Part shown: in pieces, positions 2,654 to 42,800 of the stretch
Numbering within the stretch: position 1 is the stretch's first letter
Layout of the letters: each line of letters begins with the position of its first letter
From: a virus
DNA: 64,000 nt
IMG/VR virus record: IMGVR_UViG_3300046714_000065
Location: 2,436-66,435 of that record
Strand: one strand, 5' to 3'
Position numbers and translations under genes: made by a program
The notes under the pieces: model-generated
Told to the model about the DNA's origin: nothing
Seen by the model: the letters and a program-made list of their open reading frames with translations, nothing else
The model's database searches: none

Positions 2654-2955
2654 GATGTAATAATATCATCACCAAAGGCTGCTTGTGTCATTATCATATC
2701 ATCAATTAAGTCTCGGATATTAGCACCAAGAGCAATAGGTTCACCGCCCTCTTCGCTAACAGCTTCAACAACATATTCTACTGGAGGATTCTCTTCTTCG
2801 TTAACGCTAATAATAAGCTTAAACTTCTCTGATACATCTTCAGGGTTAAAGGCTGGCAGCATCTTCTGCAATGCATTCAGACGCATAGTATCAGTAATTA
2901 CTATCTTACCTGATTCAAGCTTATCGTAGATAGTATCCGTGTTTAATGCAGGCAT
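2650..2955 (-). CDS. hypothetical protein
   Basis: ORF with an AAGGA RBS and an ATGA overlap downstream. Confidence 0.55.
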   Translation of the reverse strand: MPALNTDTIYDKLESGKIVITDTMRLNALQKMLPAFNPEDVSEKFKLIISVNEEENPPVEYVVEAVSEEGGEPIALGANIRDLIDDMIMTQAAFGDDIITS

Positions 2956-3083
2956 ATCATTTCCTTTATGCGATACGTAACAGGTTTTGAACGTTCCAGG
3001 AATTCTTCACTCGGCATTTATCCTCATGTCTTAAGATACCTAACTCTGTGAAGAATAACTTACAATGAACGCATCTGATAGTA

Positions 3084-3392
3084 CTAGCTCTTTGTCTCTC
3101 TAATAACTTTTTGTTTGTTTCGTTGCCTTTCATGGTTTACTCCTTGGTCAGGCTTCCATACTTCTAAGCCACTAGTATCTGGTGGACACTCATGTTTTAC
3201 TCCTTTCTCAAACAATCGCCAACCAGTATTAGTTTGCATCCATGTCAGACCATTTCTATAACAGCGCTTACACATGATCCAACGTGGTGCATGATAGCTT
3301 CTATACCTACGCCATCTAAATACATCTTCACCATCAGCTCTTTCAAATCCATCAAGTAGTGCATCTAACTCATGATCAAATGTATCACTCAT
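3084..3392 (-). CDS. hypothetical protein
   Basis: ORF with an AGGAG RBS immediately after the polymerase gene. Confidence 0.55.
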   Translation of the reverse strand: MSDTFDHELDALLDGFERADGEDVFRWRRYRSYHAPRWIMCKRCYRNGLTWMQTNTGWRLFEKGVKHECPPDTSGLEVWKPDQGVNHERQRNKQKVIRETKS

Positions 3393-3405
3393 TTTAAACT
3401 CCTTT

Positions 3406-5442
3406 CTAGTGCGTCTCTGCCCAATTTCTGCCTACCTTGGCTTTACCATTGGTTATCATCACACCAAACTCTTTAGCTGCTTCAGTAAATGCTTCCTCAG
3501 AGATAGCTTTAGCCCTTGCTATGATCTCAGGATCGTTATCAACTAGAAACTGTGTCTCATCGTGATATATTATGCGAGGCTTATACTTGATACCTTCTGC
3601 CTTAAACTTCTTGATCATATAGTGCATTGCTGATTTAACTGTAATACTCTCGAATCTCTGAAGCAGGTAGTTCAAAGATTTATGTGGTGAGTCTACGTAG
3701 ATCAATGCACCATCAAGACCTATAATCTTACTGAAACCTAGCTTACCCTTAAATCTACGGTAATCATCATTAAGCTTATCATTCAGCTCTGCAAATCCAG
3801 GTATAGCATTAATGAATGCTTCTTTAAGCTCATTACCTCTAGAGCTTCTCTTACCAAATACAATTAATGCTAGCTTATCACCGCCGCCACCAAATAACAA
3901 TGCATAGAAGAAAGGCTTAGCAGTCTTGCGTGCTACAGACTGATCCCACTTAAGCTCACCCATTGCTCTTGCAATAGCAGTTAATTTATCCGCATTAGCC
4001 TGGTGCACATCTCCATGCATAATGATATCAGTAAACTCTGGGTTCTTTAAATAGTAGCACAAGCCTCTAGCTTGATTACCTTCAGAGTCACAACCTATTA
4101 CTACAGTACCTGGATCAGCTAAGAATAGAGACCTTACTTCCTTACCCCAGAGACTTTCTACTGTAGGTATATTAGCAATAGTCTTATGAGTCATACGTCC
4201 AGTGGGTGTACCAAAGCACATAGCACCACCATGAAGCATATTATTCTCATCCAGATCTCTAATCCAACCACGTAAGATATTAGCTCTTGAGTTAGTAGTT
4301 AGGTATCGGTTATACAACTCACCAATAGCACCTAATAGTAATAGAGAGCTTTCACTAATCTTTTCAGATGTCTTCTCAAGCTTCCTTGTTACAGGATTCT
4401 GTTTGAAGTTCCAGTCATCTGCTACCCAACCAATAGTCCTTAACCATACCTTAGCATCTGTAGGTGATGATAATGTACGTGGCTCAAATGTAATTCTAGT
4501 GTAAGGACCATCTACTAGGCAATCGCTATATAGACCAGACTCTTGTGTTACACCAAACCAACTAGCTATATGTGCTGAATATAAGCCACTCTTAATCCAC
4601 TTAGGTGCCTTCATTGGTACTGCATAGAAGGTATCATTAGCAAAGTAAACGCTATGTGGTATAAGATTACCTTCCTCATTCCTATTCTTAGGCTCAGCTT
4701 CAAATGAACCTAGACCAACTGCATCCTTAACAATGATCTTAAAGCCCATTGTAGGTTCAATTATGTCTTCAGTTATCCTAAGCTCTTGTTCCATCTCAGC
4801 TAGCAGCTTCTCACCTGCTACTCTGTCAAACAACCAGCCTTCTAGCTCTGACTCTGCCATAAATCTAGCAGCTGTATGCTCATTTCTAAGGCTTACACTT
4901 ATCAAAGGATTTCTGTTATTCTGCTTAACGAATTCTTTAATTAGTATCTTGTAAACTCTATGATTTAAGTTAACATCCTGAATACAATAAACGATCATAT
5001 CGAATGATAGATGTGTCCAATCATTGAATGCTATCTTATGATCTTCTAAGAACTCACCCCATAGCTCTAAGCTGTGTCCTCTAAAACCAAATCGCCTAAA
5101 GTTAAGCATCTGGCTAAAGAGCAGAGTATCATGAATAGTAGTATCTGGATTAGGCTCCCATCCAAATAACTTCTTCAGCATATTTAAGTCATAATTGATA
5201 ATATTGTGGCCAATGAGCAACTTAGCTTTATACAAGTAATCCTGCCAGCTAATGTCATGTTCTATTAAGGGGCTAAGGATTGCTTTCTCTGTAGGTGTAA
5301 GTGTTTCAAAGAGCGCTGCTTCATCCGCAGGATCAAGGAACACACTAATGACATTGGTATCAATATCTTTAGCTACTAGACACCAACACTTAGTTACCTT
5401 TCTGAGTAGCTCATTAGCCTCTGTATCGAAGAGGATTCTCAT
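3406..5442 (-). CDS. DNA polymerase family A (T7-like) with 3'-5' exonuclease
   Basis: Exonuclease motifs FDTE, GHNIINYD and YCIQDV; polymerase motifs TGRMTH, GCDSEG (A), RKTAKPFFYALLFG (B) and YHDETQ (C). Confidence 0.95.
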   Translation of the reverse strand: MRILFDTEANELLRKVTKCWCLVAKDIDTNVISVFLDPADEAALFETLTPTEKAILSPLIEHDISWQDYLYKAKLLIGHNIINYDLNMLKKLFGWEPNPDTTIHDTLLFSQMLNFRRFGFRGHSLELWGEFLEDHKIAFNDWTHLSFDMIVYCIQDVNLNHRVYKILIKEFVKQNNRNPLISVSLRNEHTAARFMAESELEGWLFDRVAGEKLLAEMEQELRITEDIIEPTMGFKIIVKDAVGLGSFEAEPKNRNEEGNLIPHSVYFANDTFYAVPMKAPKWIKSGLYSAHIASWFGVTQESGLYSDCLVDGPYTRITFEPRTLSSPTDAKVWLRTIGWVADDWNFKQNPVTRKLEKTSEKISESSLLLLGAIGELYNRYLTTNSRANILRGWIRDLDENNMLHGGAMCFGTPTGRMTHKTIANIPTVESLWGKEVRSLFLADPGTVVIGCDSEGNQARGLCYYLKNPEFTDIIMHGDVHQANADKLTAIARAMGELKWDQSVARKTAKPFFYALLFGGGGDKLALIVFGKRSSRGNELKEAFINAIPGFAELNDKLNDDYRRFKGKLGFSKIIGLDGALIYVDSPHKSLNYLLQRFESITVKSAMHYMIKKFKAEGIKYKPRIIYHDETQFLVDNDPEIIARAKAISEEAFTEAAKEFGVMITNGKAKVGRNWAETH

Positions 5443-5693
5443 TGACTAAAGTCTTTATAAGAACATGGGCATATAGACCTTACCGGGCACCTATCACAAT
5501 AACCTGATTTTCTAGTTAGAATACAGCCCCATACCTTAGGCACTTCTGGATCACTAGACCACTCTATAATTACTGGCATAGTATCTGCTATTTTAGTGCA
5601 TAGATCCTGTAGTTCCTTCTTTTGTATAGCTAGCTCAATATCTTGTATAGACTTGAGTTTCCGATACTCTTCTTCACTCAGTATGTATTGCAT
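5439..5693 (-). CDS. hypothetical Cys-rich phage protein
   Basis: ORF overlapping its neighbours; C-terminal WGC...YCDRCPV..ICP. Confidence 0.55.
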   Translation of the reverse strand: MQYILSEEEYRKLKSIQDIELAIQKKELQDLCTKIADTMPVIIEWSSDPEVPKVWGCILTRKSGYCDRCPVRSICPCSYKDFSQ

Positions 5694-6123
5694 TTTCTCT
5701 ACCTTTAACTTCGTCTCTAACCACCATTAGAATCTTGCCAAGAGTGTTCTTACCTTCACCCTTATAGACACCCCAGAACTTATCACCCCAGGTATTAGTC
5801 TCTACTAGCTGAGCATCTCCTGTAGCAATTAATTTAAGTGCTAACGAGAAGTGTGTATTAAACTTAAGCCTAACAAACTTAGTCATTGTATCTATTCTAA
5901 GCACATACCAGTTAGATACCATAAGTACATTACCACCTAGATGCTTAGCTTCACCTGGTGTTGCTGAGTTAGCTATTCTAAGCTTATCTTCTTTACTCTC
6001 AACCTTAGCTGCTTGGTAAGCATGCTCTACTGTTTCGTAGGTAATGCCTTCATACGTAATTATTGAGGGGTAAAAATTGGATAAGAATCTATTGGAACCG
6101 TAGAACCCACGTATAGCATCCAT
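5674..6123 (-). CDS. NADAR (YbiA-like) family protein
   Basis: FLSNFYPS, TVEHAYQAAK, KF..H..LA.KL.ATGDA.LVE.N.WGD.FWG and G.N.LGKILM.VR motifs. Confidence 0.92.
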   Translation of the reverse strand: MDAIRGFYGSNRFLSNFYPSIITYEGITYETVEHAYQAAKVESKEDKLRIANSATPGEAKHLGGNVLMVSNWYVLRIDTMTKFVRLKFNTHFSLALKLIATGDAQLVETNTWGDKFWGVYKGEGKNTLGKILMVVRDEVKGRENAIHTE

Positions 6124-6175
6124 ATATCCTCACTATGTTAAGTGGGCCAGCTATTACACCAGCCCACTGTTACTA

Positions 6176-6802
6176 CTACTTAGCTGCTGCTAGAATCTCA
6201 TCTACTTCAGATATCTTGATGTTTCTTCCAGCTATTAGCCGTGCTGTGTAGAACTTCAAATGCCATAACGCCTTGAGTGCTTCTTGACGCCTGTCATCTT
6301 TCTTTCCACTACGAGCCAAGTACTTAAGCGTTAGATATAACACTGCACTATCAACATCTGGAAGGACATCCTGCATCACTTCAAGGAACTGATAGTTCTG
6401 AAAGTAATTCTTATAATGAGCTGGATTAACAGCTTTATCAAAATCTTTATCTAGTTTAAGAGCACTAGTAACTGGTATATCAGCTATTTTAGTTGCATTA
6501 ATTTCTGCACCTGCTGGAATCTGAGATACCTTACCTGCTGGATAAAAAAGAGGATCTTTAAGTTCTTTATGCTCAGCTAGAGGATCCCAACCATCATAGT
6601 AGTAATCTTTAATAAACTTTCCAAGAGATGCATTGTTGCCAATAGAGCTCTTTTCATTTGTAACGTTATTTACGACTAATAAGTGTTCACCTGATTCAAG
6701 CCTAAAGCCTGCAGAGTAACGTTCACCTAGCTTAATGAATTCCTCACCTGAGGTACCATCAGCCTTACAGAGCTTAAATGAATATTTCATGATGCTTACC
6801 AC
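6176..6802 (-). CDS. DUF3310 domain protein (T7 gp1.7 nucleotide kinase-like C-terminus)
   Basis: D.AVNPAHY...KYLARSGKKDD..QE..KA.W.L. Confidence 0.75.
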   Translation of the reverse strand: MVSIMKYSFKLCKADGTSGEEFIKLGERYSAGFRLESGEHLLVVNNVTNEKSSIGNNASLGKFIKDYYYDGWDPLAEHKELKDPLFYPAGKVSQIPAGAEINATKIADIPVTSALKLDKDFDKAVNPAHYKNYFQNYQFLEVMQDVLPDVDSAVLYLTLKYLARSGKKDDRRQEALKALWHLKFYTARLIAGRNIKISEVDEILAAAK

Positions 6803-16171: not shown

Positions 16172-16399
16172 CAGTATGGCTCCTCTTTAGTAGGTTTGTG
16201 ATCCTGCACAACACACAGCATGAGGCATTCTTTCTCAGTGAGTTCACGCTCACTAAGAACCCACATGATCTTCTCTTTGTGAGGTACCTCATGCAGTTTG
16301 TTGATACTAATCAAGGCTTGTTTCATTGTATCAAACTTCTTGTCTAAGAAGTTCTGTCCAACAATATAACCATAAATCACTCAGTACTCCTTATGTAAA

Positions 16400-16476
16400 T
16401 GGTAGGCCGTGTTGGACTCGAACCAACGACCAAAGGATTATGAGTCCTCTGCTCTAACCAACTGAGCTAACGGCCC
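16400..16476 (-). tRNA. tRNA with CAT anticodon, most like tRNA-Ile2 (lysidine type)
   Basis: GGGCCGTTAGCTCAGTTGGTTAGAGCAGAGGACT-CAT-AATCCTTTGGTCGTTGGTTCGAGTCCAACACGGCCTA-CCA; full cloverleaf with encoded CCA. Confidence 0.92.
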
Positions 16477-16482
16477 TGACAA

Positions 16483-16668
16483 TCAGTGTTTAGCCTGCAT
16501 CTCTTGGTGAGCTGCAGCTATGTCTCTGCGCATCTCCAACACTGTTTTGTGAACAGCATCTTCAATACGTCTTGCAAGAAGTTCAGCCTCGATATCATTT
16601 GCCAATTTGAATGGCAACTCGATGTCAAGACGAGCTCGCTTGTTCTTGAATCTTGCTCTGACTCTCAT
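16483..16668 (-). CDS. hypothetical protein
   Basis: ATGA-coupled ORF. Confidence 0.45.
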   Translation of the reverse strand: MRVRARFKNKRARLDIELPFKLANDIEAELLARRIEDAVHKTVLEMRRDIAAAHQEMQAKH

Positions 16669-17244: not shown

Positions 17245-17328
17245 TGGTGCCCGCGATCGGACTCGAACCGATATGACTTACGTCGAAGGATTTTAAGTCC
17301 TTTGTGTATACCATTTCACCACGCGGGC
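17245..17328 (-). tRNA. tRNA-Leu(TAA)
   Basis: GCCCGCGTGGTGAAATGGTATACACAAAGGACT-TAA-AATCCTT, long variable arm, GGTTCGAGTCC, acceptor stem and CCA. Confidence 0.93.
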
Positions 17329-17337
17329 AATATTCGC

Positions 17338-17637
17338 TTACTTGCTACTAACTCTGACTTTCTTAGGCTTATTACCTCCAGTAACAGTTAATGTTCCAGA
17401 TATGGTAGGCTTAGCATTTTCTTCGACCTCTTCAGGCCTAGGAACATTTTGATCAAAGAACATAACTCTGCTAGGCCGCTTATGAAACTTGTTATGATTC
17501 GTATGCATGAATGCAATCTTACCTGCCTCTGCTATGGCATAAGCTTCAGCCATACCATGACGAACATTTCGCTTGTTATGACGAATCTCTTCACCAATTT
17601 CAAGCAGTCTTAGATTTGCTTTTTCTGCGTATTTCAT
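17338..17637 (-). CDS. hypothetical protein
   Basis: AAGGAG RBS. Confidence 0.55.
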   Translation of the reverse strand: MKYAEKANLRLLEIGEEIRHNKRNVRHGMAEAYAIAEAGKIAFMHTNHNKFHKRPSRVMFFDQNVPRPEEVEENAKPTISGTLTVTGGNKPKKVRVSSK

Positions 17638-18664
17638 TTAGTTTCTCCTTAGACTGTAGTCTATACTCTTTGCCTTTGGCTATCCTACAAGTGTAGCAGT
17701 AGCTTGCAAGATGATTAGGATTACATTTTAGTTGAAAGTTAGCTCTCGGACTTAGCTCCTTACACTCGTTACACATCTTAAGACCTAGGTAGCCAGGTTG
17801 CTCTTTGGTGCTAGCCCTTGACATAGGATCTAGCAGGCCAATGCCTCTCTTTAGCAGCAGTACTTGACGCCTCATTTCTATATACTCTGGAGGTATGATA
17901 ACATCCTTACCATAAGTATGCTTTATGACGCTCTTCATATAGCCATCAGAGACTGTCTCTCGTGCTTTTGTAGAGCTTCTCTTATAAATAGCTGCAATAC
18001 TGCTACGACCTTCTGGCGTACTTAATCTCTCAGCCCTTGTTAAACTCTTCTTGGCTTTTAGAATTGCATATTTCTCTGGATCAGCCTTTAGTAGCCGTTG
18101 TTTCTCCCGTATAACCTCCCGGTTCTTCTCGCGGTAGGCTTGATGATATCCTGCCTTACACTCAGGACATTGCCTTTGCATAGTTGGGAACACATAGGGA
18201 CCTTCTAATGCGCTCTCTGACCAAAATTGCTTATCGCATTTAAAGCAGATGATTTTACCTGTTTTAGTAATCCTGTTAGGCTTAGATTCAGGCTCAGTTA
18301 CTAGCTTACCTTTCCTTTTTAGTCTGTTTACCCTAACCTGATTATTGTGACAAACCTTACAGTAAGGCATCAGGTAGCTAAGACCTAGCTTATTAGGCCT
18401 ATTGTAGAATTCGCTCCTATCCTTAGTTATAAGACAAGACTTGCAGGTCTTGGTATCTACCATATCCGATAGGCTAAGGCGATACTTTTGTTTTTCTTCA
18501 AGAGGTACCCATCGCCTCTTTGAGTCGCATTCCTTACAGTAAGTCCTTATTGCTTCTGGACCAGCTGCAGGTCTAGGACTAAATAGGGTTCTTGCCTTTA
18601 CCTCTAAGCAACAGGGGCATTGCTTATATAAAGACTTCTCAACTTTGCTAAGCTTTACAGCCAT
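17600..18664 (-). CDS. multi-zinc-finger (four C4 modules) basic protein, HNH/EndoVII-associated type, with no evident nuclease core
   Basis: Repeated K.C..C...K....F......YC..C modules; very Lys/Arg rich; GGAGG RBS. Confidence 0.7.
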   Translation of the reverse strand: MAVKLSKVEKSLYKQCPCCLEVKARTLFSPRPAAGPEAIRTYCKECDSKRRWVPLEEKQKYRLSLSDMVDTKTCKSCLITKDRSEFYNRPNKLGLSYLMPYCKVCHNNQVRVNRLKRKGKLVTEPESKPNRITKTGKIICFKCDKQFWSESALEGPYVFPTMQRQCPECKAGYHQAYREKNREVIREKQRLLKADPEKYAILKAKKSLTRAERLSTPEGRSSIAAIYKRSSTKARETVSDGYMKSVIKHTYGKDVIIPPEYIEMRRQVLLLKRGIGLLDPMSRASTKEQPGYLGLKMCNECKELSPRANFQLKCNPNHLASYCYTCRIAKGKEYRLQSKEKLNEIRRKSKSKTA

Positions 18665-18686: not shown

Positions 18687-18710
18687 AACAAAGGGCCGAA
18701 GCCCCTTGTT
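18687..18710 (-). terminator. hairpin/intrinsic terminator after the Tas gene
   Basis: AACAAGGGGC-TTCG-GCCCTTTGTT directly after the stop codon (UUCG tetraloop). Confidence 0.65.
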
Positions 18711-19579
18711 TAAGTGCCAGTGTGGTGAGTCATACCCAACTTGCCAATCGAGTACTCATCGTGAACTTCAAGACCTTCAATGCGTCTCCAGTTCAGGTAG
18801 AGATCAACCAGGAACCGCTTTATCATATAGCGGATAGCCATACGGTGACGGTGGAGCTTGGTCTTCTCCTTGTGAGCTGGATGATTCTCCAGTCTGTTTT
18901 TGTAGTTGTAGTACGAGTCCTTGTAAGGCGACTCCTTCACCTTGAGGAAGCATGTCCCCAAGACGTACAACTTGGTCTTCAAGAATGGGTTGAATGTGAT
19001 GCCAACCGTCTCCTTGATCTCACCCTCCTTGTTGGTGTAGGACTTGGGAACTCGATGTTCCTTGATCCGACTACGGCCCTTGTTGTCTTCAGTAACAACG
19101 TCGTATCCAGCAAGCTTCCACAAGCTAGATGGGTAGTTGGCCTTAGTGATGTCGATCTCACTCAGGATAACTGCCGACATGGCTGGACCACAGCCCTTGA
19201 CTTTCAGCAGGAACTCCGTGTAGATCGGGTATTCCATGAGGATCTGCTCTACACGTTTGAAGTGAGTAGCTTCTTGATCTTCCAAGCTAACGTACTGAGC
19301 CAACAAGCAAAGCTCAGTGTAGGAGGAGATCACCTCATCTCCCTTGAAGGTAGCCTGCTTGGGGAAGACCTTCACCCCATCAGTCAACTTCTTGTAGCGC
19401 CGACGAAGATCAACAAGGACTTCTTGCTCTTCTTCCTCCAGTTCTTCTTCTGGATGGCTAGGCGCTTGACCCAACTTGGTCTTGAAGTTCGCGACAATAC
19501 GGTTTCCCGTTTGAATGCGAAGCTTTTGAAGATCATACGCACCACGAACCATAATGCGTACGTTGCTACTTGGTTCCAT
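18710..19579 (-). CDS. TIGR-associated Nop-domain protein, TasA-like (IS110-related RNA-binding fold, no RuvC/HNH)
   Basis: N-terminal coiled coil (YDLQKLRIQTGNRI), VKGCGPAMSAVILSEID..K...PSSLWKLAG (IS110/Nop helix-hairpin), FNPFLKTKL, and Y...K.RL...H.HRMAIRYMIKRFL.DL; adjacent to a 36-nt dual-repeat array. Confidence 0.85.
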   Translation of the reverse strand: MEPSSNVRIMVRGAYDLQKLRIQTGNRIVANFKTKLGQAPSHPEEELEEEEQEVLVDLRRRYKKLTDGVKVFPKQATFKGDEVISSYTELCLLAQYVSLEDQEATHFKRVEQILMEYPIYTEFLLKVKGCGPAMSAVILSEIDITKANYPSSLWKLAGYDVVTEDNKGRSRIKEHRVPKSYTNKEGEIKETVGITFNPFLKTKLYVLGTCFLKVKESPYKDSYYNYKNRLENHPAHKEKTKLHRHRMAIRYMIKRFLVDLYLNWRRIEGLEVHDEYSIGKLGMTHHTGT

Positions 19580-19626
19580 ACTACTTTACTCCTGGGTTGT
19601 AATGTTGCTACTGCACTTACTTAAGT

Positions 19627-21258
19627 TGATTCACAAAAGTAAATTGGGTTACTGGTCCTGTTTGATGCACTCACGGGAACTGGGTTACTCGTTCGTGTTG
19701 ATTCACTTTATTACATTGGGTTCCTTTTAGAAACTGATTCACTTTCGTATCCTGGGTTACAATTTCCAGATGATCCACTCAATGGGAGAGAGTTACTTTT
19801 CTGTTTTGATTTACTATGGCTTCGAGGGTTACATCCCACTCTAGATCCACTTCTACATATTGGGTTACTAACTACTACCGATTCACTTACCTAGCGAGGG
19901 CTAATAGCTGCAGTGGGCTCACTATATCACCTTGGGTTACATGACAATCTTGATACACCTAGCTCCGATGGGTTACTTCGTGATTCTGATTCACTAAGAC
20001 TATCTGGGTTAAGGGGTCTGCATGATACGCATATTCAACTTGGGTTACTTATCCTTGTTGATACACTCGTTCAATTTGGGTTACTGAATTTTGCTGATAC
20101 GCTAATCTCCTTGGGGGGTTATCTCAGGGCTATGACACACTTTCGTGCATTGGGTTACTACTCAAGTTTGATTCACTTCTTCTCTCTGGGTTGCTATGCC
20201 ATTTTGATTCACAAGCGAGCTTAGGTTTGCTCAACGGTGATGGTTCACTGAAAACACTTGGGTTACTCAACTGGATTGATTCACTCTACAACATTGGGTT
20301 AATTGGTCCCGTCTGATTCACTGTGCATCTTTGTATTACTACATTGCGGTGATACACTTACTTCGCCAGGGTGGCTATGTCTCAATGATCCACTAGATGA
20401 CGATGGGTTACTCCGTGTATATGATACACTTAGTTCTTTTGGGTTACTTGTATAGTAGGATTCACTTCGTCAAGGTGGGTTACTGAACAATCCGGATTCA
20501 CTACGTTCTTTTGGGTTACTGTCCGCTTCGGATTAGCATTGCTCCTTTGGTTTACATAGAAGCGCCGACTCACTATTACCTTTTGGGTTACTTAGTTACT
20601 TTGATACACTTTCGTTTGATGGGTTACTTCCTAGTTTCGATACACTTCAAAGCGCTGGGTTACTTCTACTGATTGGTTCGCTTACTCGTTCAGAGTTGCT
20701 ACTCTTCATTGACACGCTCATTCATCTTGGGTTACTACGTTGCTATGACTCGCTAACCTTCTAAGGGTTACTTGTACAGTAGGACTCACTGTTCTACGCT
20801 GGGTTACTGCGCTCACATGATGCACTTTGTTCCAATGGGTTACTCCTATCAAATGATGCACTAACACTATATGGGTTACTCTGGCACTCTGATTCACTGC
20901 ATCCCTTTGAGTTGCTAGGTTCAATTGATGCACTTCTAGCCATTGGGTTACTGAACAAACCTGATTAGCATGCTGCCATTGGATTACTTACGAAGACAGA
21001 CTCACTGTCATAGCTTGGGTTACTAATCACTCTTGATTCACTGCTTGTTATTGGTTTACTCGAATGCCTTGATTCACTCGCGAGCTTTGGGTTACTCTTT
21101 CTTAAGGATTCACTCGTTATGTCTGGGTTACTTCAGATTAATGATACACTACCTTATCTTGGGTTTATCCGCAAGAGTGATACACTCAACTCCTCTGAGT
21201 TACTTTTTCGGAGTGATGCGCTTAGCTTCATTGGGTTACTAACTACGTATGACTAGTC
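19627..21258 (-). ncRNA. TIGR-type (tandem interspaced guide RNA) array, 45 units of 36 nt
   Basis: The plus-strand unit is TGATWCACT-N9-TGGGTTACT-N9. TGGGTTACT-like copies occur at 19645, 19681, 19717 ... 21196 and 21232. The sense-strand repeats are AGTAACCCA and AGTGWATCA. Confidence 0.92.
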
Positions 21259-21597
21259 TCTAATGAGTATTAGATTCTCAATTAGAGTATTAGACTTATC
21301 CTTATCCAGGGGTCTAATCTTGAAGTTACCATGTGGTACATCGTAGTGGTATACCCACACTAAGAAGTCTACACGATACCTATTCTTGTTGATACGTACT
21401 TCTCTGTAGCCAGCACCATTCATGCTACCAGCAGGCTTGCTAATATCAACAGTGATAGCTGGCTTTATTCTCCAATAAAGATTCCCTTCGTTGTAATGAA
21501 ATAGAAAAATTAAAAGATCTTTTGTTATCATGGACCTCTTAATCTTGCTAGTGGCTAATACCTCCATAAGTCTCCTTTGCGAAAAATAAAGAGGCAT
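21253..21597 (-). CDS. HNH_3-like protein with degenerate active site
   Basis: F.Y.EGNLYW...AGS....GY..V.I....Y....LVW and DKSN.LIENL are present, but the His residues are replaced (YRVDFL, IRPLD). Confidence 0.65.
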   Translation of the reverse strand: MPLYFSQRRLMEVLATSKIKRSMITKDLLIFLFHYNEGNLYWRIKPAITVDISKPAGSMNGAGYREVRINKNRYRVDFLVWVYHYDVPHGNFKIRPLDKDKSNTLIENLILIRD

Positions 21598-23804: not shown

Positions 23805-26800
23805 CTAGTTAGTTTCAAGTAATTCAATTCTTTCAAGTAATGCCTTATTCTGAGCGCTAAGTTCTTTAACTGCAGATACTAATAACGGAATGATATCATT
23901 ATAAGCAATACCTAAATGGCCTACCTTAGGATCAGCAATAGAAACAGCACTAGGCAGAATCTTCTGAACATCTTGTGCAATTAGGAATGAACGCTCAGTT
24001 CCAGGCTCATCATAAAGATAACGACCTAAGCCTGAGCGTAATGTTTCAAGCTTAGCAACAGCACCACTAAACTCTACGAAATCAGTTTTAGTACGTTCAT
24101 CAGAACCAGCACTCCAATTAAGCGCACCATCAAGGATATAAGGACCACGACCATCTTGATTGTAGGTACAGTAATGTCTTGAACCGTTAGGACCAACTGT
24201 CCACCATGCACCTGCAACAGTTGAAACGTGTCTAAGTGCTAAAGGATAACCTACAGGATTAGTGTTTACTACGCTTAAGCCTTCATCACCTAAAGCTCCG
24301 GTGGGGCCAACAAGTACGCGCCCATCATGTAATATCTGCATCTGTATTGGTGGATGGTCTACTGTACCATTCGGCCCTACTCTGAACTCCATTCTACCAT
24401 AGTTACCTAATGGAGCAGATGCTGCTACTCTAATCGAGGCTACGTAAGAAGGATCAGATATATCACGGTAAGCGTTCCACAGTATAGAACCAATGCCGTG
24501 ATCTGCACCATTTACCTGTCTATTAGTGAGTACAATAACAGGACCATCTCCACTATCAACCCTTAACTTTACACCTGGTGCAGATACATCACCTGTCTGT
24601 ACAGTACTACCATTAGATAGCACATAGAAGGCATCAGCACCTACACCATTACCCACTCTAAATGCTTGGCTAGATCCACCTGCGCCATTATCCCAGTTAA
24701 TTATTACTGCATAATTTTGTAATGCATTCAAATGTAAATTAGGTGTCATCTTAATGGCACCACCTGGCGGTGTGTAACCATTAATTGTAGCTATGTCGCC
24801 AAATGCATTAATCCAGGTTAAGGTATTACTCGTTATAAAGTTTTGCCAGGCATGCCAAGTCTGGCTATCACCATTTCTTGTACGAAAAGCTAGAAAGTTA
24901 TTCTGATAACTGGCTTGTATCTGAAATCCATAACCACCACCTGCAAAGTAGGCTACAGCACCTACGTGGGGTGCATTAACTTGATAAGTAAATCCTGAGC
25001 TATTCTCTGGTAACACGTTAGCATCAATAGCCCAGCCATAATAGTAGAACAGTTGTCTATTACCTATTACGCTATTAGTTAGGTGAGCTAAGCTAGATTT
25101 ACGATAAAAGCCATCATTACCCGTATTGACAGTAATTATATCACCTATAGGCGGGTTTTCACCAGCAACGGTATTGCTATTAATGTAGTTTAAGTGGGTA
25201 TAACCATTGTTATCTCTAGTAGCTATTGTGTTAATAGCTGTGACATGACTTACATATAAGCCACCTGCAGTATTAGCATTATCTGCGTTACCTGCAGCAC
25301 CTGCTTTTACAGGAGCACCATGGTTATTTTTAAGCTGCCAATAGGTACCATCCCATTCATTATAAAGATAATAAGCGCCTACATGCGTTGTGGCCCATAA
25401 GTAAGTTGCATAATTTGAAGTAACTGCGCTACCTGTAACATTACCATGAACAGTTATAGGGCCAGTGCTATTTGATATATTACCATTTTCACTAAAGTAA
25501 TAAGCTTGAGTTGGCGTAGTATCACTATTAATACCTAATGCGAGATAGATACCGCCATTCCAGCTAGCAGTACCCATGCGGTAATGACCTATACTCCAAT
25601 GATGCTGATAACCATAAGGTGTTACCATGCTAAGACCATGTAATGCTGGTGCATAAGTTAGCACCTCTTGTGCCATCCAAATGAATGGTATCTCTATTGG
25701 CGCTGAGGTAAGATGCGTAATTGAGCCTAATGAACTTGAAGTACTTGTAGTAAGACTACTACCAAAAGCACCAGTACCACTAACACTAAGTGCACCATTT
25801 ACGTTAACACCACCATCATAAAATACTGCAGGTACGGCACCTGATATTTGATTAGCAATGTATAAGCTGTTGTTGCTAGCAGGCATTTTAACTGCCCAGA
25901 TAGCAACATTAGACTGGTGAATATTTAATGCAGCTTCTACACCTTGTCCAGAATTTATCTGAATTATACCATTATTAGCATTGATACCACCATTAACACT
26001 AAAGCCGCCATTATAGATACCACTACCAGCTAAATCAATTCTAATACGTTCTGAGTAGCTAGTGCCATTAGCTGTCCATAATGATGCACCGCCTACGTCA
26101 TTAATCTGCCAACCATGACCATACACTCCAGCACCTGATGTAAAGTTCCAGATACCACTATTACTATCAGCAGTAGAGGACCAGCCTACATAGTTAGCAA
26201 AACCACCAAGTATATTAAGCTTAGCATTAGCCATAGTGGTGCCAATGAATACCCTACCTGCAGCATTAACACGCATCTTTTCAGCTGTTGTATAAAGACT
26301 ACCTTCGCCTGCTGAGAATATAATATCTGTATCAGCGCCAATTACAGCAGCCTGCCCAGATATACGTAAGTAACCAGTGTTAGACGTAGCATTAGTCCAA
26401 CGTAGCTGTGCAATCTCATTAGGCGCACAAAGGTTTAATCTAGCATTACTAGATATAGCATTAGGGTTACCTGCAAAGATATCACCAGATGCATCAACTA
26501 TAAGTCTATCAATACCACCTGTCCTAATTGATACGCCTGTAGCATTTCCAAATAAACTAGAGCCTGCTACAGTAAAGGCTAATGGGCCAGTCATAGTTCC
26601 ACCAGCTATCGGCACAAATAAGCTAGTATCAACAGATGCCCCAGGTACACCTTGAATACCCTGTGGTCCTTGCACACCTTGTGGGCCTGCTGGGCCTATT
26701 GGGCCTGTAGGGCCTATTGGACCCTGTATACCTTGTGGACCTTCTGGGCCTACAATACTACCTGTATCAACCCAACCTGATGGATCAAATGTAGTACCCA

Positions 26801-27545
26801 TGTAGGTATAGATATGACCCCATAAAGGATCAGTCGATAAACCTAATGTATAAGCTAAACCCTGTGTTACTAGCATCTGAACTGGTGCAGCAGGATTGCC
26901 TACTGAATCCCAGTCAGCTGGAATTAAACCATCAGGCGGCAAGTCTGTAGGTACTTTACCTAGGCCAAAAGCACCAATGATAACAGATGACTGGCCTGCA
27001 TCACCTTGCTCACCTTGAACACCTTGATCTCCTTGAGGCCCTTGTTCTCCAGTCTCACCTTGGATACCTTGTATACCCTGAATACCTTGAGGGCCAATAG
27101 GGCCTATCTCACCCTGAATACCTTGTGGTCCAATAGGGCCAGTCTCGCCCTGAATACCTTGTGGACCCATTGGACCTGTAGGGCCAACTATGCCTTGTAT
27201 ACCTTGTATACCTTGATCACCCTTATCTCCTTTTTCACCTTGTATACCTTGAATACCTTGGATACCTTGTGGGCCAACTGGCCCTATCTCACCTTGTATA
27301 CCTTGATCACCCTTATCTCCTTTTTCACCTTGTATACCTTGAATACCTTGGATACCTTGGATACCTTGAGGCCCTTGCGCCCCTACTGTTTCCATTCTGA
27401 TAGTGTAATCACCATTATCATCTACAAATAATTTATATTCTAATGCTGATGTGCTAACATTATAAGCTTCAAAGTCAGTACCTGATACACTGCTCTTACC
27501 AGGTATAAGCTTATTTGCTTTAGGGAATTGAGGTGCTTTACTCAT
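23805..27545 (-). CDS. tail fibre with collagen-like repeats and C-terminal intramolecular chaperone (peptidase S74)
   Basis: Long G-X-Y runs; SDERTK...IAQDVQ.ILP.AV...Y..IIPLLV.AVKEL coiled-coil end. Confidence 0.88.
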
Positions 27546-39892: not shown

Positions 39893-42800
39893 TTATTGTC
39901 GTTTATTCCAATCAACATTTTGTTTATTCACCATCGATGCAATCTCTCTAGGCATCCTGGATATTTCATTTCTAGTCTGTCTACTAATATCCCCAGTAAC
40001 TGCGATATTAAAAGTCTGAGTTAGACTCTTTTCTGAATTCATTAAAGCCATTTCCTTATCTCTATTAGCTACTGCAGAGTTCATTGCAGAAGTACCATAA
40101 CCAGTACTTACAGAGCCACCTGCTGCAAACTTAGGTGTATTCTTACCGAAGTTAATAGCATCAAGGACTGGTCTGAACATCTTAGCTCTAGAGGCTCTTA
40201 CCACGTATTCATTATTGGATAAGAATGCAGGAATACTATCAGAGGTCTCTGTACCTTGACCAAATATTGGGCCACCTTCAGCTAGCTTAAACTTGATACC
40301 TGGCCCTACAGTACCTGAGCCTGCAGCAGGGGCCGAAGCACCACTAAACATACCAATTCCTTGGAGGATCATAGAACCCCATTGGAAGAACTTGCTACCT
40401 AAATCCTTAAACATACTCTTAGTTGCTTGTGTCTCAAACATAGCTTCAGTCATACCCTCAACAAAAGATTTAACTAAGCCTTGTGTAAAGTCTTGTGCAA
40501 CATTCTTAAGAGTAGTCATACCTGATTGCTTAAGCATTAGGAATTCAGTGACTTGAGATTCTATACCAGACTTAACAGTGGAATAGAAAGAGTCACCTGC
40601 AGCCCTTACCATTTCTGCATAGTCATACTTTAAGTCTTGGAGATCTCTTTCACTCTGCTCTAGACCTGCTCGCATTGCAGCTATTTGTTCAGGAGTTAAT
40701 CCAGTAGGCTTAGCCAATGTATTTCTAATTTTACGAATAGCCTCAGCGAGATCTGTAACATTCTTAAGAGTCTCAGTATCTAACTTATAAATTACTCCAC
40801 CAAAGTCTTCACCAATTAGATCTAGTTTATGCTTAGCTAATGCTAGCGGGTTACCGGCTAAAGCATCTGTTATTATAGCTTCCATACGCTCTTTGGTATC
40901 TTTCAACCCTTGAGCGAAGTCTATAGCTGCCTTTACACTAGCTTCAGAATCCCAATCAACAGGACCTTGCGCTATAAGACTAGCAGCTACTTCATCTTGA
41001 ATATTCTTAAGTTGCTTTTGGGCACTAGCAGATAGATTCTGAGCTAAGTCTTCGTTCATACCTTCAGATGATATAAAATTAGCATATGTAATATTCTTTT
41101 TCTCAATTATAGCTCTAGCTTTTGCTAACTCTTTGTCTGATTCAATTTGTAATGTCTGTATAGCATCACTATAGTCAACCTTTGCAGAGTCACCTGGTTT
41201 CAGCTTATCTCGTAGTTCAGTATACTCTTTAATGTACTTAGCTATATCTTCCACACGCTTAACAGCATCTTGAGACATAACGCTATCTAAACCACCACCT
41301 AACCCAAGCCTTTCAAGCTTCTTACTATACTTCTCATTATCTATGGTTACCTTTTCTTTACCCTTGGCTAATGCATCTTCTGCTTCTCTAGCAGCAGCAA
41401 TATTACCCTTAGTAGGTGCCTTCTTACGTAAAACTTCTAGTTTGTTTAATTGTGCTTCTAAGTCTTTTAGTACCTTCATATTATCTAATACAGTATCAGC
41501 TAAATCTGGGCCAAGACCAAGCTTATCCATGAAATCACCAACATTTACTGGATCCTTAGGCTTATACTCAAAAGCCTTATTCATCTTTTCTTGGATATTA
41601 GCTAGCTCTAATTGAGCCATTGGATCACCAAGATTATCCTTATACTTCTCCATTACTCTTGCAGCACCATCTAGGAAAGCTTGAGCTCTAGCAGCACCAC
41701 CCTTGCCTGCCCTAGCTATATCTGCTTGCGAAGGTGCTGATAAACCAACTTTAGCATAATCATCAGAATGCCATTGGTTAATATTCTTAAAAGGTTCTGT
41801 AGCTAATTTCTCAATTTCAGCGACTAATACCTTTCTAGTATTAAGATCTATAGCTAGTTGACCACCTGCTCTCTCTATGCTATCTGTCATTTCTTTAGAT
41901 ATTTCCTCAAGTGGGTTCATACCTAGATTTATTTTTCCTAGTGTAACCCTATCATCTACCTCTTTAAGCTTCCTCGCTAGCAACGGCTTTAATGCTAAGT
42001 TTTCAACGTTAGTACCAGTAGCCGCAGCTAGGGCACCATAAGTACCTGTCAGAGCTTGCAGCTGACCAGCCACAGCAGCCATCTCACCTTTCCATCTACC
42101 CCAAAGCTTAACCATCTCTTCTGTACTACCCTTAAACTTCAGCAGTGTTCCATAATTATACGATACGGATCTAAGTTGATCTGCAAAAGTTTTAGACTTA
42201 TCACCTAGCATATTAAACTGATCTACAGTTAACTCAGGTAATTTTAGCTTAGTTAACTCCTTATTGATATCCTCAATCTTATCTTTAGGTAATGCATCTT
42301 GAGCTTTCTGATTTAGACGTTTCAGCTCATCTCTAGCTTGCTTAGCTGCAGCGTGATACTTATCACGTAAGCCATATTCTTCAGAGTAAGTATCTGCAGC
42401 CACAGCCCTATATAAGCTAGCTTCTGCCTTTTTGTATGCTGCACCTGCATCTATAAGTTCTCTAGCTGTCTGAGGCGCAAGAGCTATAAGATCCAACTTA
42501 TCAGTACCTTCTAGCTCTGTAAATCCAGTGCTAAGCGCTTGTTCTAAACCAGCACCAAATTCTTTAGTCTCGCGGAATATTTTATCTACATCATTCCGCA
42601 GGGATATCATCGCATTAGCACGTTGTCTTTCAATTAAACCAAGTCCTTTAGTTTGACCAGTTTTTATAGCGGTAACAACTTTATCTATTGAATCGTTATA
42701 AAGCTTCAGAGTATCAAGCTCACCTGCTGTTAACACATAGTCTAAATTAGCACCATAAGCCTTCATTGCATCTGCTTTTTCACGTAATGATTTATCTGAC

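What the first reader, a model, noticed from the sequence alone, without database searches (positions are those of the whole stretch)
18710..21258. Phage-encoded RNA-guided TIGR-Tas system: a 45-unit, 36-nt dual-repeat/dual-spacer array upstream of a Nop-domain gene
Seen in sequence: 1.63 kb of strictly periodic DNA between two genes. The plus-strand unit is TGATWCACT-N9-TGGGTTACT-N9 (sense strand AGTAACCCA-N9-AGTGWATCA-N9). I counted 45 units, giving about 90 almost all different 9-nt spacers. The array ends about 47 nt before the ATG of a co-oriented 289-aa IS110/Nop-like gene, which is closed by a UUCG hairpin. Established knowledge: two alternating short repeats, 9-nt spacers A/B and 36-nt guides next to a Nop-domain protein define TIGR-Tas (Faure et al., Science 2025), where the two spacers pair with opposite strands of a PAM-less DNA target. 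The system class is therefore described; this locus, its repeats and its targets are not known to me. Inference: the phage makes up to about 45 guides early in infection, aimed at competing phages, plasmids or host genes.
Basis: partly seen in the sequence, partly recalled or inferred. Interest (0 to 1): 0.95.

Follow-up and report, generated by a model that had tools for sequence, protein, structure and literature searches.

The report
Phage TIGR-TasA guide-RNA locus, 45 guides
A soil phage carries a genuine TIGR-Tas system, with 45 two-part guide RNAs in front of a nuclease-free guide-binding protein; this kind of system was published in 2025, so it is a clean and unusually long new example, not a new kind.

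Summary
Window 19627-21240 contains 90 alternating 9-nt repeats, which make 45 units of 36 nt with 90 of 90 spacers distinct. The array ends 47 nt before a 289-aa gene on the minus strand.

That protein scores 126 bits on NCBIfam TIGR_Tas_endo, whose cut-off is 100. Its AlphaFold model matches only TasH and TasR structures in the top ten PDB hits. It has no nuclease domain, so it is a TasA.

The sense strand is the minus strand. The repeats read AG|UAAC|CCA (loop) and AG|UGWA|UCA (edge). I read the same AG/CCA boxes in the published Salicola phage TasH array. In 39 of 39 related loci with an adjacent array, this orientation matches that of tas.

Position 6 of each edge repeat covaries with position 3 of the next one (permutation P = 1.5e-5). 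This is what pairing of the two ends of a processed tigRNA predicts.

I found no targets in the phage's own genome or in about 1.9 Mb of related viral and metagenomic loci. Expression could not be tested.

The most likely function is an RNA-guided DNA binder or repressor, as shown for another TasA in 2026. This is a new member of a known kind. This scan already holds 115 TIGR-Tas notes in at least 83 genomes.

The parts
21250..21258 (-). Degenerate first edge-type repeat (GACTAGTCA). It keeps the 3' UCA box, and its G6 pairs with C3 of the next edge repeat. It overlaps the stop codon of the upstream 114-aa ORF.
19627..21240 (-). Core TIGR array of 45 loop repeats (consensus AGUAACCCA) alternating with 45 edge repeats (consensus AGUGWAUCA). 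It holds 45 spacer A and 45 spacer B; 88 spacers are 9 nt, one is 10 nt and one is 11 nt. In 40 of 45 units G2 and C8 are intact in all three repeats and both spacers are 9 nt.
19593..19617 (-). Decayed repeat remnants between the array and tas: AGTGCAGTA at 19609-19617 and TACAACCCA at 19593-19601.
19589..19593 (-). AGGAG ribosome-binding site, 9 nt before the tasA ATG.
   Evidence: read from the sequence
18710..19579 (-). tasA, 289 aa. It is a Nop-domain TIGR-associated protein without a nuclease domain. Y276 is invariant and H285 is at least 90% conserved, marking a candidate tigRNA-processing dyad.
18687..18710 (-). 10-bp hairpin with a UUCG loop directly after the tasA stop codon. No U-tract follows.

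Best explanation
This is a dual-repeat TIGR-TasA system carried by a soil siphovirus of about 66 kb.

Proposed steps:
1. The minus strand is transcribed through the array into tasA. This step is inferred.
2. TasA dimers bind the pre-tigRNA at the AG...YCA boxes of the edge and loop repeats. This step is inferred.
3. The transcript is cut inside each edge repeat, between positions 3 and 6 of AGUGWAUCA, probably by TasA's own Tyr/His loop. This step is inferred.
4. The result is up to 45 tigRNAs of 36 nt. Each carries spacer A and spacer B, and its two ends pair with each other. The pairing is supported by covariation in the sequence.
5. Each RNP recognises an 18-bp DNA site, with one 9-nt spacer pairing to each strand. 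This step is inferred from published relatives.
6. TasA has no nuclease, so the outcome is binding, not cutting. That would block transcription or replication, as was shown for a stem-loop TasA (MbTasA) in 2026.

The targets are unknown. They are not in the phage's own genome.
For: Protein:
- NCBIfam NF052498 TIGR_Tas_endo scores 126.2 bits against a cut-off of 100 and covers profile positions 2-215 of 215.
- phmmer against PDB sequences finds only two distinct sequences at E <= 10, a chain of the TIGR-TasR entry 9mty and TasH (2e-9 and 4e-6).
- The AlphaFold2 model has pLDDT 81 and pTM 0.74. Its first ten Foldseek PDB hits are all TasH or TasR chains, with probability 1.00 and TMq 0.52-0.64. 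IS621 bridge recombinase comes next.
- There is no HNH or RuvC part. The alignments start at about residue 123 of the 331-residue TasR chain and at residue 142 of the 354-residue TasH chain.

Array:
- It has 45 units of 36 nt with conserved repeats and hypervariable 9-nt spacers.
- The boxes are AG + 4 nt + YCA in both repeats, the same plan as AG|ACAA|CCA and AG|CGAG|CCA read in the Salicola phage CGphi29 array downstream of tasH. Faure et al. studied that array's small RNAs experimentally (section 5).

Strand:
- 39 of 46 tas loci examined, the window included, have an adjacent period-36 array. In 39 of 39 the AG.....CA orientation is that of tas.
- Nearly all large ORFs of the window lie on the minus strand.

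Unit ends:
- Position 6 of edge k and position 3 of edge k+1 form Watson-Crick pairs in 43 of 45 units, including 7 G-C pairs made from 8 G6 and 8 C3 variants.
- The comparison values are 35 of 46 within the same repeat and 31 of 45 in the reverse direction. Permutation P is 1.5e-5.
- Faure et al. describe this pairing between the two ends of a processed tigRNA (section 8 and Fig. 6G legend).

Processing dyad:
- SpTasH Y289 and H296 are catalytic for pre-tigRNA cutting (PMC13421893 section 15).
- Y289 aligns with Y276 here, which is invariant in 38 of 38 sequences.
- A His (H285, at least 90% conserved) lies two residues after the column aligned with H296.

Binding-only function: MbTasA binds target DNA and represses transcription without cleavage (Xu et al. 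2026 bioRxiv, section 12).
Against: - There is no expression or processing evidence. No listed sequencing run that holds the locus is RNA.
- No target was found. The own genome (66 kb) gave no hit with 1 mismatch or fewer, and counts equalled those of shuffled spacer pairs.
- The 130 loci holding 848 kb gave 0 exact and 2 one-mismatch hits. The 94 kin loci holding 1.06 Mb gave 0 exact and 1 one-mismatch hit. All of this is within chance.
- The candidate catalytic His is offset by two residues from SpTasH H296, so self-processing is only plausible.
- Only 20 of 45 units keep the strict AG / YCA boxes in all three repeats, although 40 of 45 keep G2 and C8. Some units may therefore be dead.
- The TasA shown to repress transcription uses stem-loop guides. 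For a dual-repeat TasA (FpTasA), the paper sections I read report only binding of 36-nt RNA.
- No promoter signal stands out: 9 sigma-70-like sites against 7.7 expected.
Confidence: 0.85

Rival explanations
1. The system cuts DNA after all. TasA recruits one of the flanking HNH-like proteins as a nuclease acting in trans: the 354-aa gene at 17600-18664 or the 114-aa ORF at 21253-21597.
For: Both neighbours hit PHROG HNH, endonuclease VII or other endonuclease families, with E-values from 5e-12 to 9e-8 for the 354-aa protein and 2e-14 for the 114-aa protein. The close relative L062 (TasA 85% identical) has a homologue of the C-terminal part of the 354-aa gene downstream of tas.
Against: None of 8 neighbouring proteins, these two included, has a tblastn match at E <= 1e-3 in the 40 loci then held, 26 of which carry tas. 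The pairing is therefore not conserved. L062 is simply a syntenic kin phage. Pfam finds no domain in either protein at E <= 0.01. Faure et al. state that TasA lacks clear associations with other proteins (section 5). HNH homing-endonuclease genes are common free-standing phage genes (general knowledge).
Confidence: 0.05
2. The array works as DNA, not as RNA. It would be a set of protein-binding iterons, such as a centromere-like, origin or packaging element, or a decaying satellite with no function.
For: The DNA is strictly periodic with short conserved 9-mers. No RNA evidence is available.
Against: Iterons do not need exactly 9-nt hypervariable spacers, two alternating repeat types, or covariation between positions 33 nt apart across each unit. 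Neutral decay of a satellite would spread changes evenly, not give 1.3-1.6 bits against 0.1 bits per position. The neighbouring protein is a family-level Tas. The same architecture flanks tas in 38 other loci.
Confidence: 0.03
3. The tigRNAs are read from the plus strand, antisense to tas. The repeats would then be UGAUWCACU and UGGGUUACU, which start with the canonical box D 'UG'.
For: TaTasR repeats start with UG and end with CCA (Faure et al. section 8). On the plus strand both repeats start with UG.
Against: On the plus strand G2 faces A7, so the box C/D G-C pair that spans a 4-nt gap is lost. On the minus strand G2 can pair with position 7 in 46 of 46 edge-type and 39 of 45 loop repeats. 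The Salicola phage array shows AG/CCA on the tas strand. The AG.....CA orientation matches tas in 39 of 39 loci, whether the array lies upstream or downstream. Almost all genes here are on the minus strand.
Confidence: 0.03
4. TasA-tigRNA is not a repressor or interference device. It would be an RNA-guided helper for another DNA transaction, such as DNA bending for recombination or integration, or partition. Alternatively it would guide RNA modification in the way box C/D RNPs do.
For: Faure et al. raise DNA bending as an aid to integrases and note a link to ParB (discussion). The fold is related to Nop5 and IS110.
Against: My scans of the large ORFs and of the genes beside the locus named no integrase, ParB or methyltransferase. 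TaTasR did not act on RNA substrates (Faure et al. section 7). None of the 45 guides matches the phage's own genome.
Confidence: 0.04

Closest known systems
Dual-repeat TIGR-TasA systems, for example FpTIGR of Flavonifractor plautii (Faure et al., Science 2025, PMC12045711)
   Same: Both have a solo Nop-domain Tas protein and an adjacent co-oriented array of two alternating short repeats with 9-nt spacers A and B. The units are 36 nt, and a degenerate edge repeat sits at the array end.
   Different: This array has 45 units, whereas Faure et al. say 'most often 5 to 15'. The mean is about 16 per dual-repeat array, from 65,635 tigRNAs in 4,126 arrays (Xu et al.; the division is mine). The array lies upstream of tas. 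The edge repeat uses a U-A end pair and a UCA box. The host is a lytic-looking soil siphovirus. I could not see the FpTIGR sequence itself.
Ralstonia phage RSL1 ORF034 (annotated 'transposase') and the repeat region downstream of it
   Same: It is the closest protein in the phage collection: 37% identity over 97% of the query, E 1e-54. Its repeats are similar, AGTCACCCn and AGTGnnCCn, they lie on the tas strand, and the array is long, about 36 units by eye.
   Different: Its array is downstream of tas and its repeats are more degenerate. It is a 231-kb jumbo phage of a known host. The record has no annotation over the array.
SpTasH of Salicola phage CGphi29 (PDB 9W03, 9W04, 21KL and others)
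   Same: Both have the Nop fold; SpTasH gives the best Foldseek hits at E 3e-10. Both repeats carry AG...CCA boxes. The Tyr of the processing dyad aligns.
   Different: SpTasH has an N-terminal HNH nuclease and cuts DNA. Its spacers are 8 nt and its repeats 10 nt, and its array has about 11 units. Sequence identity is only 18-19% in the structural alignments.
MbTasA, together with the catalytically dead TasRs CsTasR and PateTasR (Xu et al., bioRxiv 2026, 10.64898/2026.09.09.750476)
   Same: It is a nuclease-free RNA-guided DNA binder. It gives the best experimental model for what a TasA does: reversible, guide-dependent transcriptional repression.
   Different: That study presents these proteins under stem-loop tigRNA systems, which lack the C-terminal Tyr/His processing loop. 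The window's system is of the dual-repeat type and has that loop.
IS110/IS621 bridge-RNA recombinases and archaeal box C/D Nop5 RNPs
   Same: They share the Nop-type RNA-binding fold. IS621 scores E 2.6e-4 in Foldseek. Pfam Transposase_20 and NCBIfam IS110 give weak sub-threshold hits.
   Different: This protein has no DEDD/RuvC recombinase domain, no bridge RNA and no fibrillarin or L7Ae partners. The scores are far below the family cut-offs: 17 bits against 140, and 16.3 bits against 21.3.

Membership tests
TIGR-Tas | Tas protein with the TIGR-associated Nop domain (sequence family) | tested here: met
   NCBIfam NF052498 TIGR_Tas_endo scores 126.2 bits against a cut-off of 100, E 1.8e-36, and covers profile positions 2-215 of 215. 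The six-frame search of the whole record gives 122.5 bits.
TIGR-Tas | Tas/Nop fold with a coiled-coil region and a C-terminal RNA-binding domain | tested here: met
   The AF2 model has pLDDT 81.2 and pTM 0.74. Foldseek PDB ranks 1-10 are all TasH or TasR chains with probability 1.00. The dimer itself was not modelled.
TIGR-Tas | Adjacent array of two alternating short repeats with two spacers of about 9 nt per unit (36-nt units) | tested here: met
   There are 90 repeats in 45 units, and 88 of 90 spacers are 9 nt. Repeats carry 1.3-1.6 bits per position and spacers 0.1 bits.
TIGR-Tas | Box D and box C motifs shared by the edge and loop repeats, with a G-C or G-U pair across a 4-nt gap | tested here: met
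   The repeats read AG|UAAC|CCA and AG|UGWA|UCA. G2 can pair with position 7 in 46 of 46 edge-type and 39 of 45 loop repeats. The same AG/CCA plan is seen in the Salicola phage array. Box D is AG, not the UG of TaTasR.
TIGR-Tas | Edge repeat whose two halves pair across a processed unit | tested here: met
   Position 6 of edge k pairs with position 3 of edge k+1 by Watson-Crick rules in 43 of 45 units, with 7 compensatory G-C pairs; permutation P is 1.5e-5. Within a single repeat, positions 3 and 6 are complementary in 40 of 46 edge-type repeats against 3 of 45 loop repeats.
TIGR-Tas | Array transcribed and processed into 36-nt tigRNAs that co-purify with Tas | not testable with these tools
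   No RNA run holds the locus. Rfam has no matching family.
TIGR-Tas | Tandem-spacer recognition of both strands of a DNA target | not testable with these tools
   Only searches for natural targets were possible, and they found nothing above the shuffled controls.
TasA subtype | No HNH or RuvC nuclease domain fused to the Nop domain | tested here: met
   The protein is 289 aa. The HMM covers residues 8-265. The PDB alignments begin after the nuclease parts of TasR and TasH. Pfam finds no nuclease domain.
Dual-repeat Tas (self-processing type) | C-terminal loop with a conserved Tyr/His dyad (SpTasH Y289/H296) | tested here: inconclusive
   Y276 aligns with Y289 and is invariant in 38 of 38 sequences. 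H285 is at least 90% conserved but lies two residues after the column aligned with H296. Catalysis was not tested.
IS110 RNA-guided transposase | Full-length match including the DEDD/RuvC-like catalytic domain | tested here: not met
   NF033542 scores 17.1 bits against a cut-off of 140. Only profile positions 122-262 match. Pfam Transposase_20 scores 16.3 bits against 21.3.
CRISPR array | One repeat of about 25-36 nt alternating with spacers of similar size | tested here: not met
   The array has two different 9-nt repeats and 9-nt spacers.

The most novel reading that the evidence does not exclude
The array is a mosaic built by exchange of whole 36-nt guide cassettes between phages, and it serves as a 45-plex silencer of host or rival-phage genes.

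Seven units (1, 8, 14, 15, 16, 20, 32) have G-C paired ends of the AGCGAGUCA type, which is the standard edge repeat of most related arrays. The other units have U-A ends. A TasA relative that is 85% identical keeps the same repeats but shares none of the tas-proximal spacers visible in the 297 nt of contig upstream of its tas. A soil relative about 93-95% identical shows joints and replaced letters inside the array.

If units move as cassettes cut at the tigRNA processing site, this would give a first handle on how TIGR arrays gain spacers. That question is stated to be open in both papers I read.
Probability: 0.2. Interest if true: 0.6.

Novelty: new member of a known kind. Interest (0 to 1): 0.3.

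Why it matters
[quoted passage not shown] This locus adds no new principle.

It is a well-preserved and very long dual-repeat TasA array, with 45 guides, on a phage genome estimated at 95% complete. It was the longest of the 46 loci compared here. Pieces identical to it, array included, occur in a run of a second study, and a diverged relative occurs in a third.

Its internal covariation defines the guide boundaries from sequence alone. That makes it a convenient substrate for testing three things: processing by a dual-repeat TasA, multiplex repression, and array evolution.

Tried and rejected
Target searches. For the 43 units with two 9-nt spacers I built two geometries inside scripts, spacer A followed by the reverse complement of spacer B and the converse. 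I allowed gaps of 0-2 and searched both strands, with shuffled A/B pairings as control.
- Own genome, 66 kb with the array masked: no hit with 1 mismatch or fewer. There were 2 hits with 2 mismatches, in line with the controls.
- 40 loci, 374 kb: no hit with 1 mismatch or fewer.
- 130 loci, 848 kb: 0 exact and 2 one-mismatch hits.
- 94 kin loci around portal and capsid genes, 1.06 Mb: 0 exact and 1 one-mismatch hit, guide 12 in L147. That site has no counterpart in the window.
- All of these are within chance. The closest kin were mostly short contigs.
- I did not scan the large public collections with single 18-mers.

Spacer sharing. Comparing 6118 candidate spacers in the other loci with the 88 nine-nt spacers gave 80 matches with 1 mismatch or fewer, against 57.5 expected under uniform composition. 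I treat that as chance given the A-rich spacers and duplicate loci.

Near-duplicate spacers within the array. Pairs with 2 mismatches or fewer: 9 against 8.1 expected. Pairs with 1 mismatch or fewer: 3 against 0.70 expected, P = 0.04. This is weak.

Host. The portal and RNAP point to siphoviruses of Ruegeria and Pelagibacter and to an EBPR siphovirus, at 34-45% identity. Genome-contig hits for TasA are scattered over MAGs of many phyla. No host could be called.

Expression. No RNA holder is listed. The runs laid were DNA contigs.

Promoters and terminators. Nothing exceeds the shuffles. A 10-nt word that occurs twice just upstream of the array lies inside the upstream ORF and is not enriched in the window: 9 matches against 8.6 expected.

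Other blanks.
- Rfam has no family for the array.
- megablast of the locus against the phage collection found no match.
- The DNA polymerase and terminase scans of viral contigs found no relatives.
- My first relaxed array detector was too noisy, and I replaced it with the lag-36 detector.
- I did not run complex prediction for the TasA dimer. A pass would rest on likeness to solved Tas dimers.

Not visible to me. Supplements were closed, so I could not check whether this contig is already in table S1 of Faure et al. or in TIGRSafari. The part of the TIGRFinder methods that lists the dual-repeat box motifs is cut off in the held text.
Full report
WHAT IS THERE

On the + strand, from 19627 to 21240, two 9-nt repeats of type TGATWCACT and TGGGTTACT alternate every 18 nt. 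That gives 90 repeats, or 45 units of 36 nt. There are two phase slips, one 11-nt and one 10-nt spacer. The other 88 spacers are 9 nt.

Over the 43 canonical units, the repeats carry 1.34 and 1.56 bits per position and the spacers 0.08 and 0.13 bits. All 90 spacers differ from one another. Such a sharp block pattern is not what a drifting satellite gives.

No frame stays open through the array. The longest ORFs inside it are 103 aa on the + strand and 71 aa on the - strand.

Decayed repeat remnants lie at both ends: 21250-21258, and 19609-19617 plus 19593-19601. The last remnant touches the AGGAG in front of the ATG of the 289-aa minus-strand gene at 18710-19579. A 10-bp UUCG hairpin overlaps its stop codon.

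The window is part of a 66,435-base IMG/VR virus record with an estimated completeness of 95%.

THE PROTEIN

NCBIfam's equivalog model 'TIGR-Tas system RNA-guided endonuclease' scores 126 bits against a cut-off of 100. IS110 models only brush it, at 17 bits against 140.

A phmmer search of PDB sequences at E <= 10 finds only two distinct sequences. One is a chain of the TIGR-TasR entry 9mty and the other is TasH.

An AlphaFold2 model built on a 38-sequence alignment has pLDDT 81 and pTM 0.74. Its first ten Foldseek PDB hits are TasH and TasR chains, followed by IS621.

The alignments begin after the nuclease domains of TasR and TasH, and the protein is only 289 aa. It is therefore a TasA as defined by Faure et al. 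(section 4).

SpTasH cuts its own pre-tigRNA with Y289 and H296 (PMC13421893, section 15). Y289 aligns with Y276 here, which is invariant in 38 of 38 relatives. A His that is at least 90% conserved, H285, sits two residues after the column aligned with H296. Self-processing is plausible but not shown.

WHICH STRAND, AND WHICH REPEAT IS THE EDGE

The repeat motifs are near-palindromic, so the strand had to be tested.

I read the array of Salicola phage CGphi29, which Faure et al. studied by small-RNA sequencing (section 5). On the tasH strand it reads AG|ACAA|CCA and AG|CGAG|CCA. On the window's minus strand the repeats read AG|UAAC|CCA and AG|UGWA|UCA, which is the same plan. There G2 can pair with position 7 in 46 of 46 edge-type and 39 of 45 loop repeats. 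On the plus strand that pair is lost.

I compared 46 tas loci: the window, 2 named phages, 23 viral contigs and 20 genome contigs. Of these, 39 have a period-36 array next to tas. In 39 of 39 the AG.....CA orientation matches tas, whether the array is upstream, downstream or on both sides. Four of the 7 loci without an array are cut by a contig end at or close to tas.

The TIGRFinder rule assigns as edge the repeat whose 4-nt gap has complementary terminal bases (Xu et al., text held under section 21). This names AGUGWAUCA as the edge: 40 of 46 against 3 of 45.

More tellingly, position 6 of each edge repeat covaries with position 3 of the next edge repeat, 33 nt downstream. There are 43 of 45 Watson-Crick pairs, including 7 G-C pairs built from the 8 G6 and 8 C3 variants. 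The comparison values are 35 of 46 within one repeat and 31 of 45 in the opposite direction. Permutation P is 1.5e-5.

This is the pairing between the 5' and 3' ends of one processed tigRNA that the TasR structure shows (Faure et al., section 8 and Fig. 6G legend). It places the unit boundary between positions 3 and 6 of the edge repeat.

CONTEXT

Nearly all large ORFs are on the minus strand. PHROG hits name the following:
- a terminase, a portal and a MuF-like head protein;
- a major head protein;
- a 2796-aa tape measure protein and a tail fibre J-like protein;
- a 715-aa RNA polymerase and a second, weaker RNAP-like hit in a 628-aa ORF;
- a DNA polymerase.

The TIGR locus lies between the tail-fibre end of the structural genes and a stretch holding two tRNA genes and small ORFs.

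Its nearest cultured kin by portal and RNAP are siphoviruses of Ruegeria and Pelagibacter, at 34-45% identity. The DNA itself occurs in soil and rhizosphere runs. One run is probably the source. A second, from another study, holds identical pieces that include array pieces. A third holds a relative about 93-95% identical, whose contigs show skips and replaced letters inside the array. These are low-depth contigs, so I treat them as a hint only.

None of 8 neighbouring proteins recurs in the 40 loci then held, 26 of which carry tas. The array and tasA therefore form a self-contained module. The flanking HNH-like genes are probably unrelated homing-type genes.

RELATIVES

The TasA clade is large. 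Among 2020 candidates, 1695 proteins score E <= 0.001, and many are 60-87% identical.

The closest named phage protein is Ralstonia phage RSL1 ORF034, annotated as 'transposase', at 37% identity. A degenerate array of about 36 units with similar repeats follows it and is not annotated.

A metagenome contig whose TasA is 85% identical carries the same two repeats upstream of tas. In the 297 nt of that contig upstream of tas, which holds about seven units, I saw no spacer shared with the window's tas-proximal units.

By the same lag-36 measure, the window's array spans 47.5 units and is the longest of the 46 loci. The next is 38.6 units, and RSL1 is about 36.7 by eye. Faure et al. give 'most often 5 to 15'. 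Xu et al. count 65,635 tigRNAs in 4,126 dual-repeat arrays, about 16 each by my division.

TARGETS

Faure et al. report 8-nt 3' overhangs and a 'C - 5' cleavage rule (sections 7 and 8). From these I infer that a target reads spacer A followed by the reverse complement of spacer B. I searched that geometry and the converse, with gaps of 0-2, against shuffled A/B pairings.

Nothing exceeded chance in the phage's own genome or in 374 kb, 848 kb and 1.06 Mb of related viral, metagenomic and genomic loci. The guides therefore do not regulate the phage's own genes at perfect or near-perfect sites. Beyond that, the targets remain unknown. Xu et al. state the same for most TIGR spacers (discussion).

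MECHANISM

Shown here by sequence:
- family and fold of TasA;
- array architecture;
- strand;
- unit boundaries and pairing of unit ends.

Inferred from published relatives:
- transcription of the array together with tasA;
- cutting inside the edge repeat, by the Tyr/His loop or by a host RNase;
- one 36-nt tigRNA per TasA dimer;
- pairing of the two spacers with opposite strands of an 18-bp site;
- binding without cleavage, which blocks transcription (MbTasA and dead TasRs, Xu et al., section 12).

Whether the phage uses this to silence host genes, to suppress rival elements or to time its own cycle is open.

NOVELTY

The kind has been in print since 2025. A full-text search lists 47 papers that hold 'TIGR-Tas'. 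This scan has 115 notes on it in at least 83 genomes.

This locus is a clean new member. Its array is exceptionally long and lies upstream of tas. A minority of its units have G-C ends that resemble the standard edge repeat AGCGAGYCA of related arrays. That fits, but does not prove, exchange of whole guide cassettes.

I read the following:
- Faure et al.: outline, sections 4-8, 10, 24 and 49, and passages.
- Xu et al.: outline, sections 5, 12, 13 and 21, and passages.
- PMC13421893: passages and section 15.
- Guan et al.: outline and abstract only.

Supplements were closed. I could not check whether this contig is already listed in the published catalogues.

Noticed in passing
tas loci L002-L061 and window 19627-21240: Across 19 non-redundant loci with at least 8 extracted spacers, spacer G+C is on average 7.9 points below that of the rest of the locus (Wilcoxon P = 1.6e-4). 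It still tracks the locus value (r = 0.71). In the window the values are 0.405 and 0.437. This could reflect AT-rich targets such as promoters, or easier unwinding of the DNA. It is not explained.
   Followed up: partly
window, units 1, 8, 14, 15, 16, 20, 32 of the array (sense order): Seven units have G-C paired ends, G6 in the 5' edge and C3 in the 3' edge, in place of the usual A-U. Edge 14 is AGCGAGTCA, which is the standard edge repeat of most related arrays. These units may be imported or older cassettes.
   Followed up: partly
L002 (Ralstonia phage RSL1, NC_010811.2), locus 3932-6331: ORF034, annotated as 'transposase', is a TasA homologue at 37% identity. A dual-repeat array of about 36 units follows it and has no annotation in the record. 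RSL1 has a cultured host, so it would suit a search for natural targets.
   Followed up: partly
L004 (Microcystis phage Mvi-JY20, PP438412.1), locus 2812-3537: A hypothetical protein matches TasA residues 97-276 at 30% identity, E 3e-14. I did not look for an array there.
   Followed up: no
window 21253-21597 (-): This 114-aa ORF matches only the middle of PHROG HNH endonuclease families (phrog_99 positions 100-195 of 383), so it is probably a fragment. Its stop codon lies inside the first degenerate repeat of the array, which leaves no intergenic leader.
   Followed up: partly
Pfam finds no family at E <= 0.01, and PHROGs gives only a weak hit of unknown function. It does not recur in the 40 loci searched.
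   Followed up: partly
window 17600-18664 (-): This 354-aa Cys-rich protein has weak PHROG hits to HNH, endonuclease VII and Lar-like families and no Pfam hit. A homologue of its C-terminal part follows tas in the close relative L062.
   Followed up: partly
window 26635-26812, inside the 1246-aa ORF 23805-27545: The lag-36 detector also fires here. This is the collagen-like GIQG/GPQG repeat of a tail-fibre-like protein, not a guide array.
   Followed up: no
window 39893-48283 (-): The tape measure protein is 2796 aa, very long for a 66-kb siphovirus.
   Followed up: no
window 20026-21178, run X3: Contigs of a soil relative about 93-95% identical show skips of 69-576 nt. Letters between the joints include the same repeat with other spacers. 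This suggests that array content differs between strains. The contigs are low-depth and were laid at 85% likeness.
   Followed up: partly
window 16400-16476 and 17245-17328 (-): Two tRNA genes, Met (CAT) and Leu (TAA), lie downstream of the TIGR locus. Many unrelated metagenome contigs pile up on the tRNA-Met (depth bin 16267-16533).
   Followed up: no
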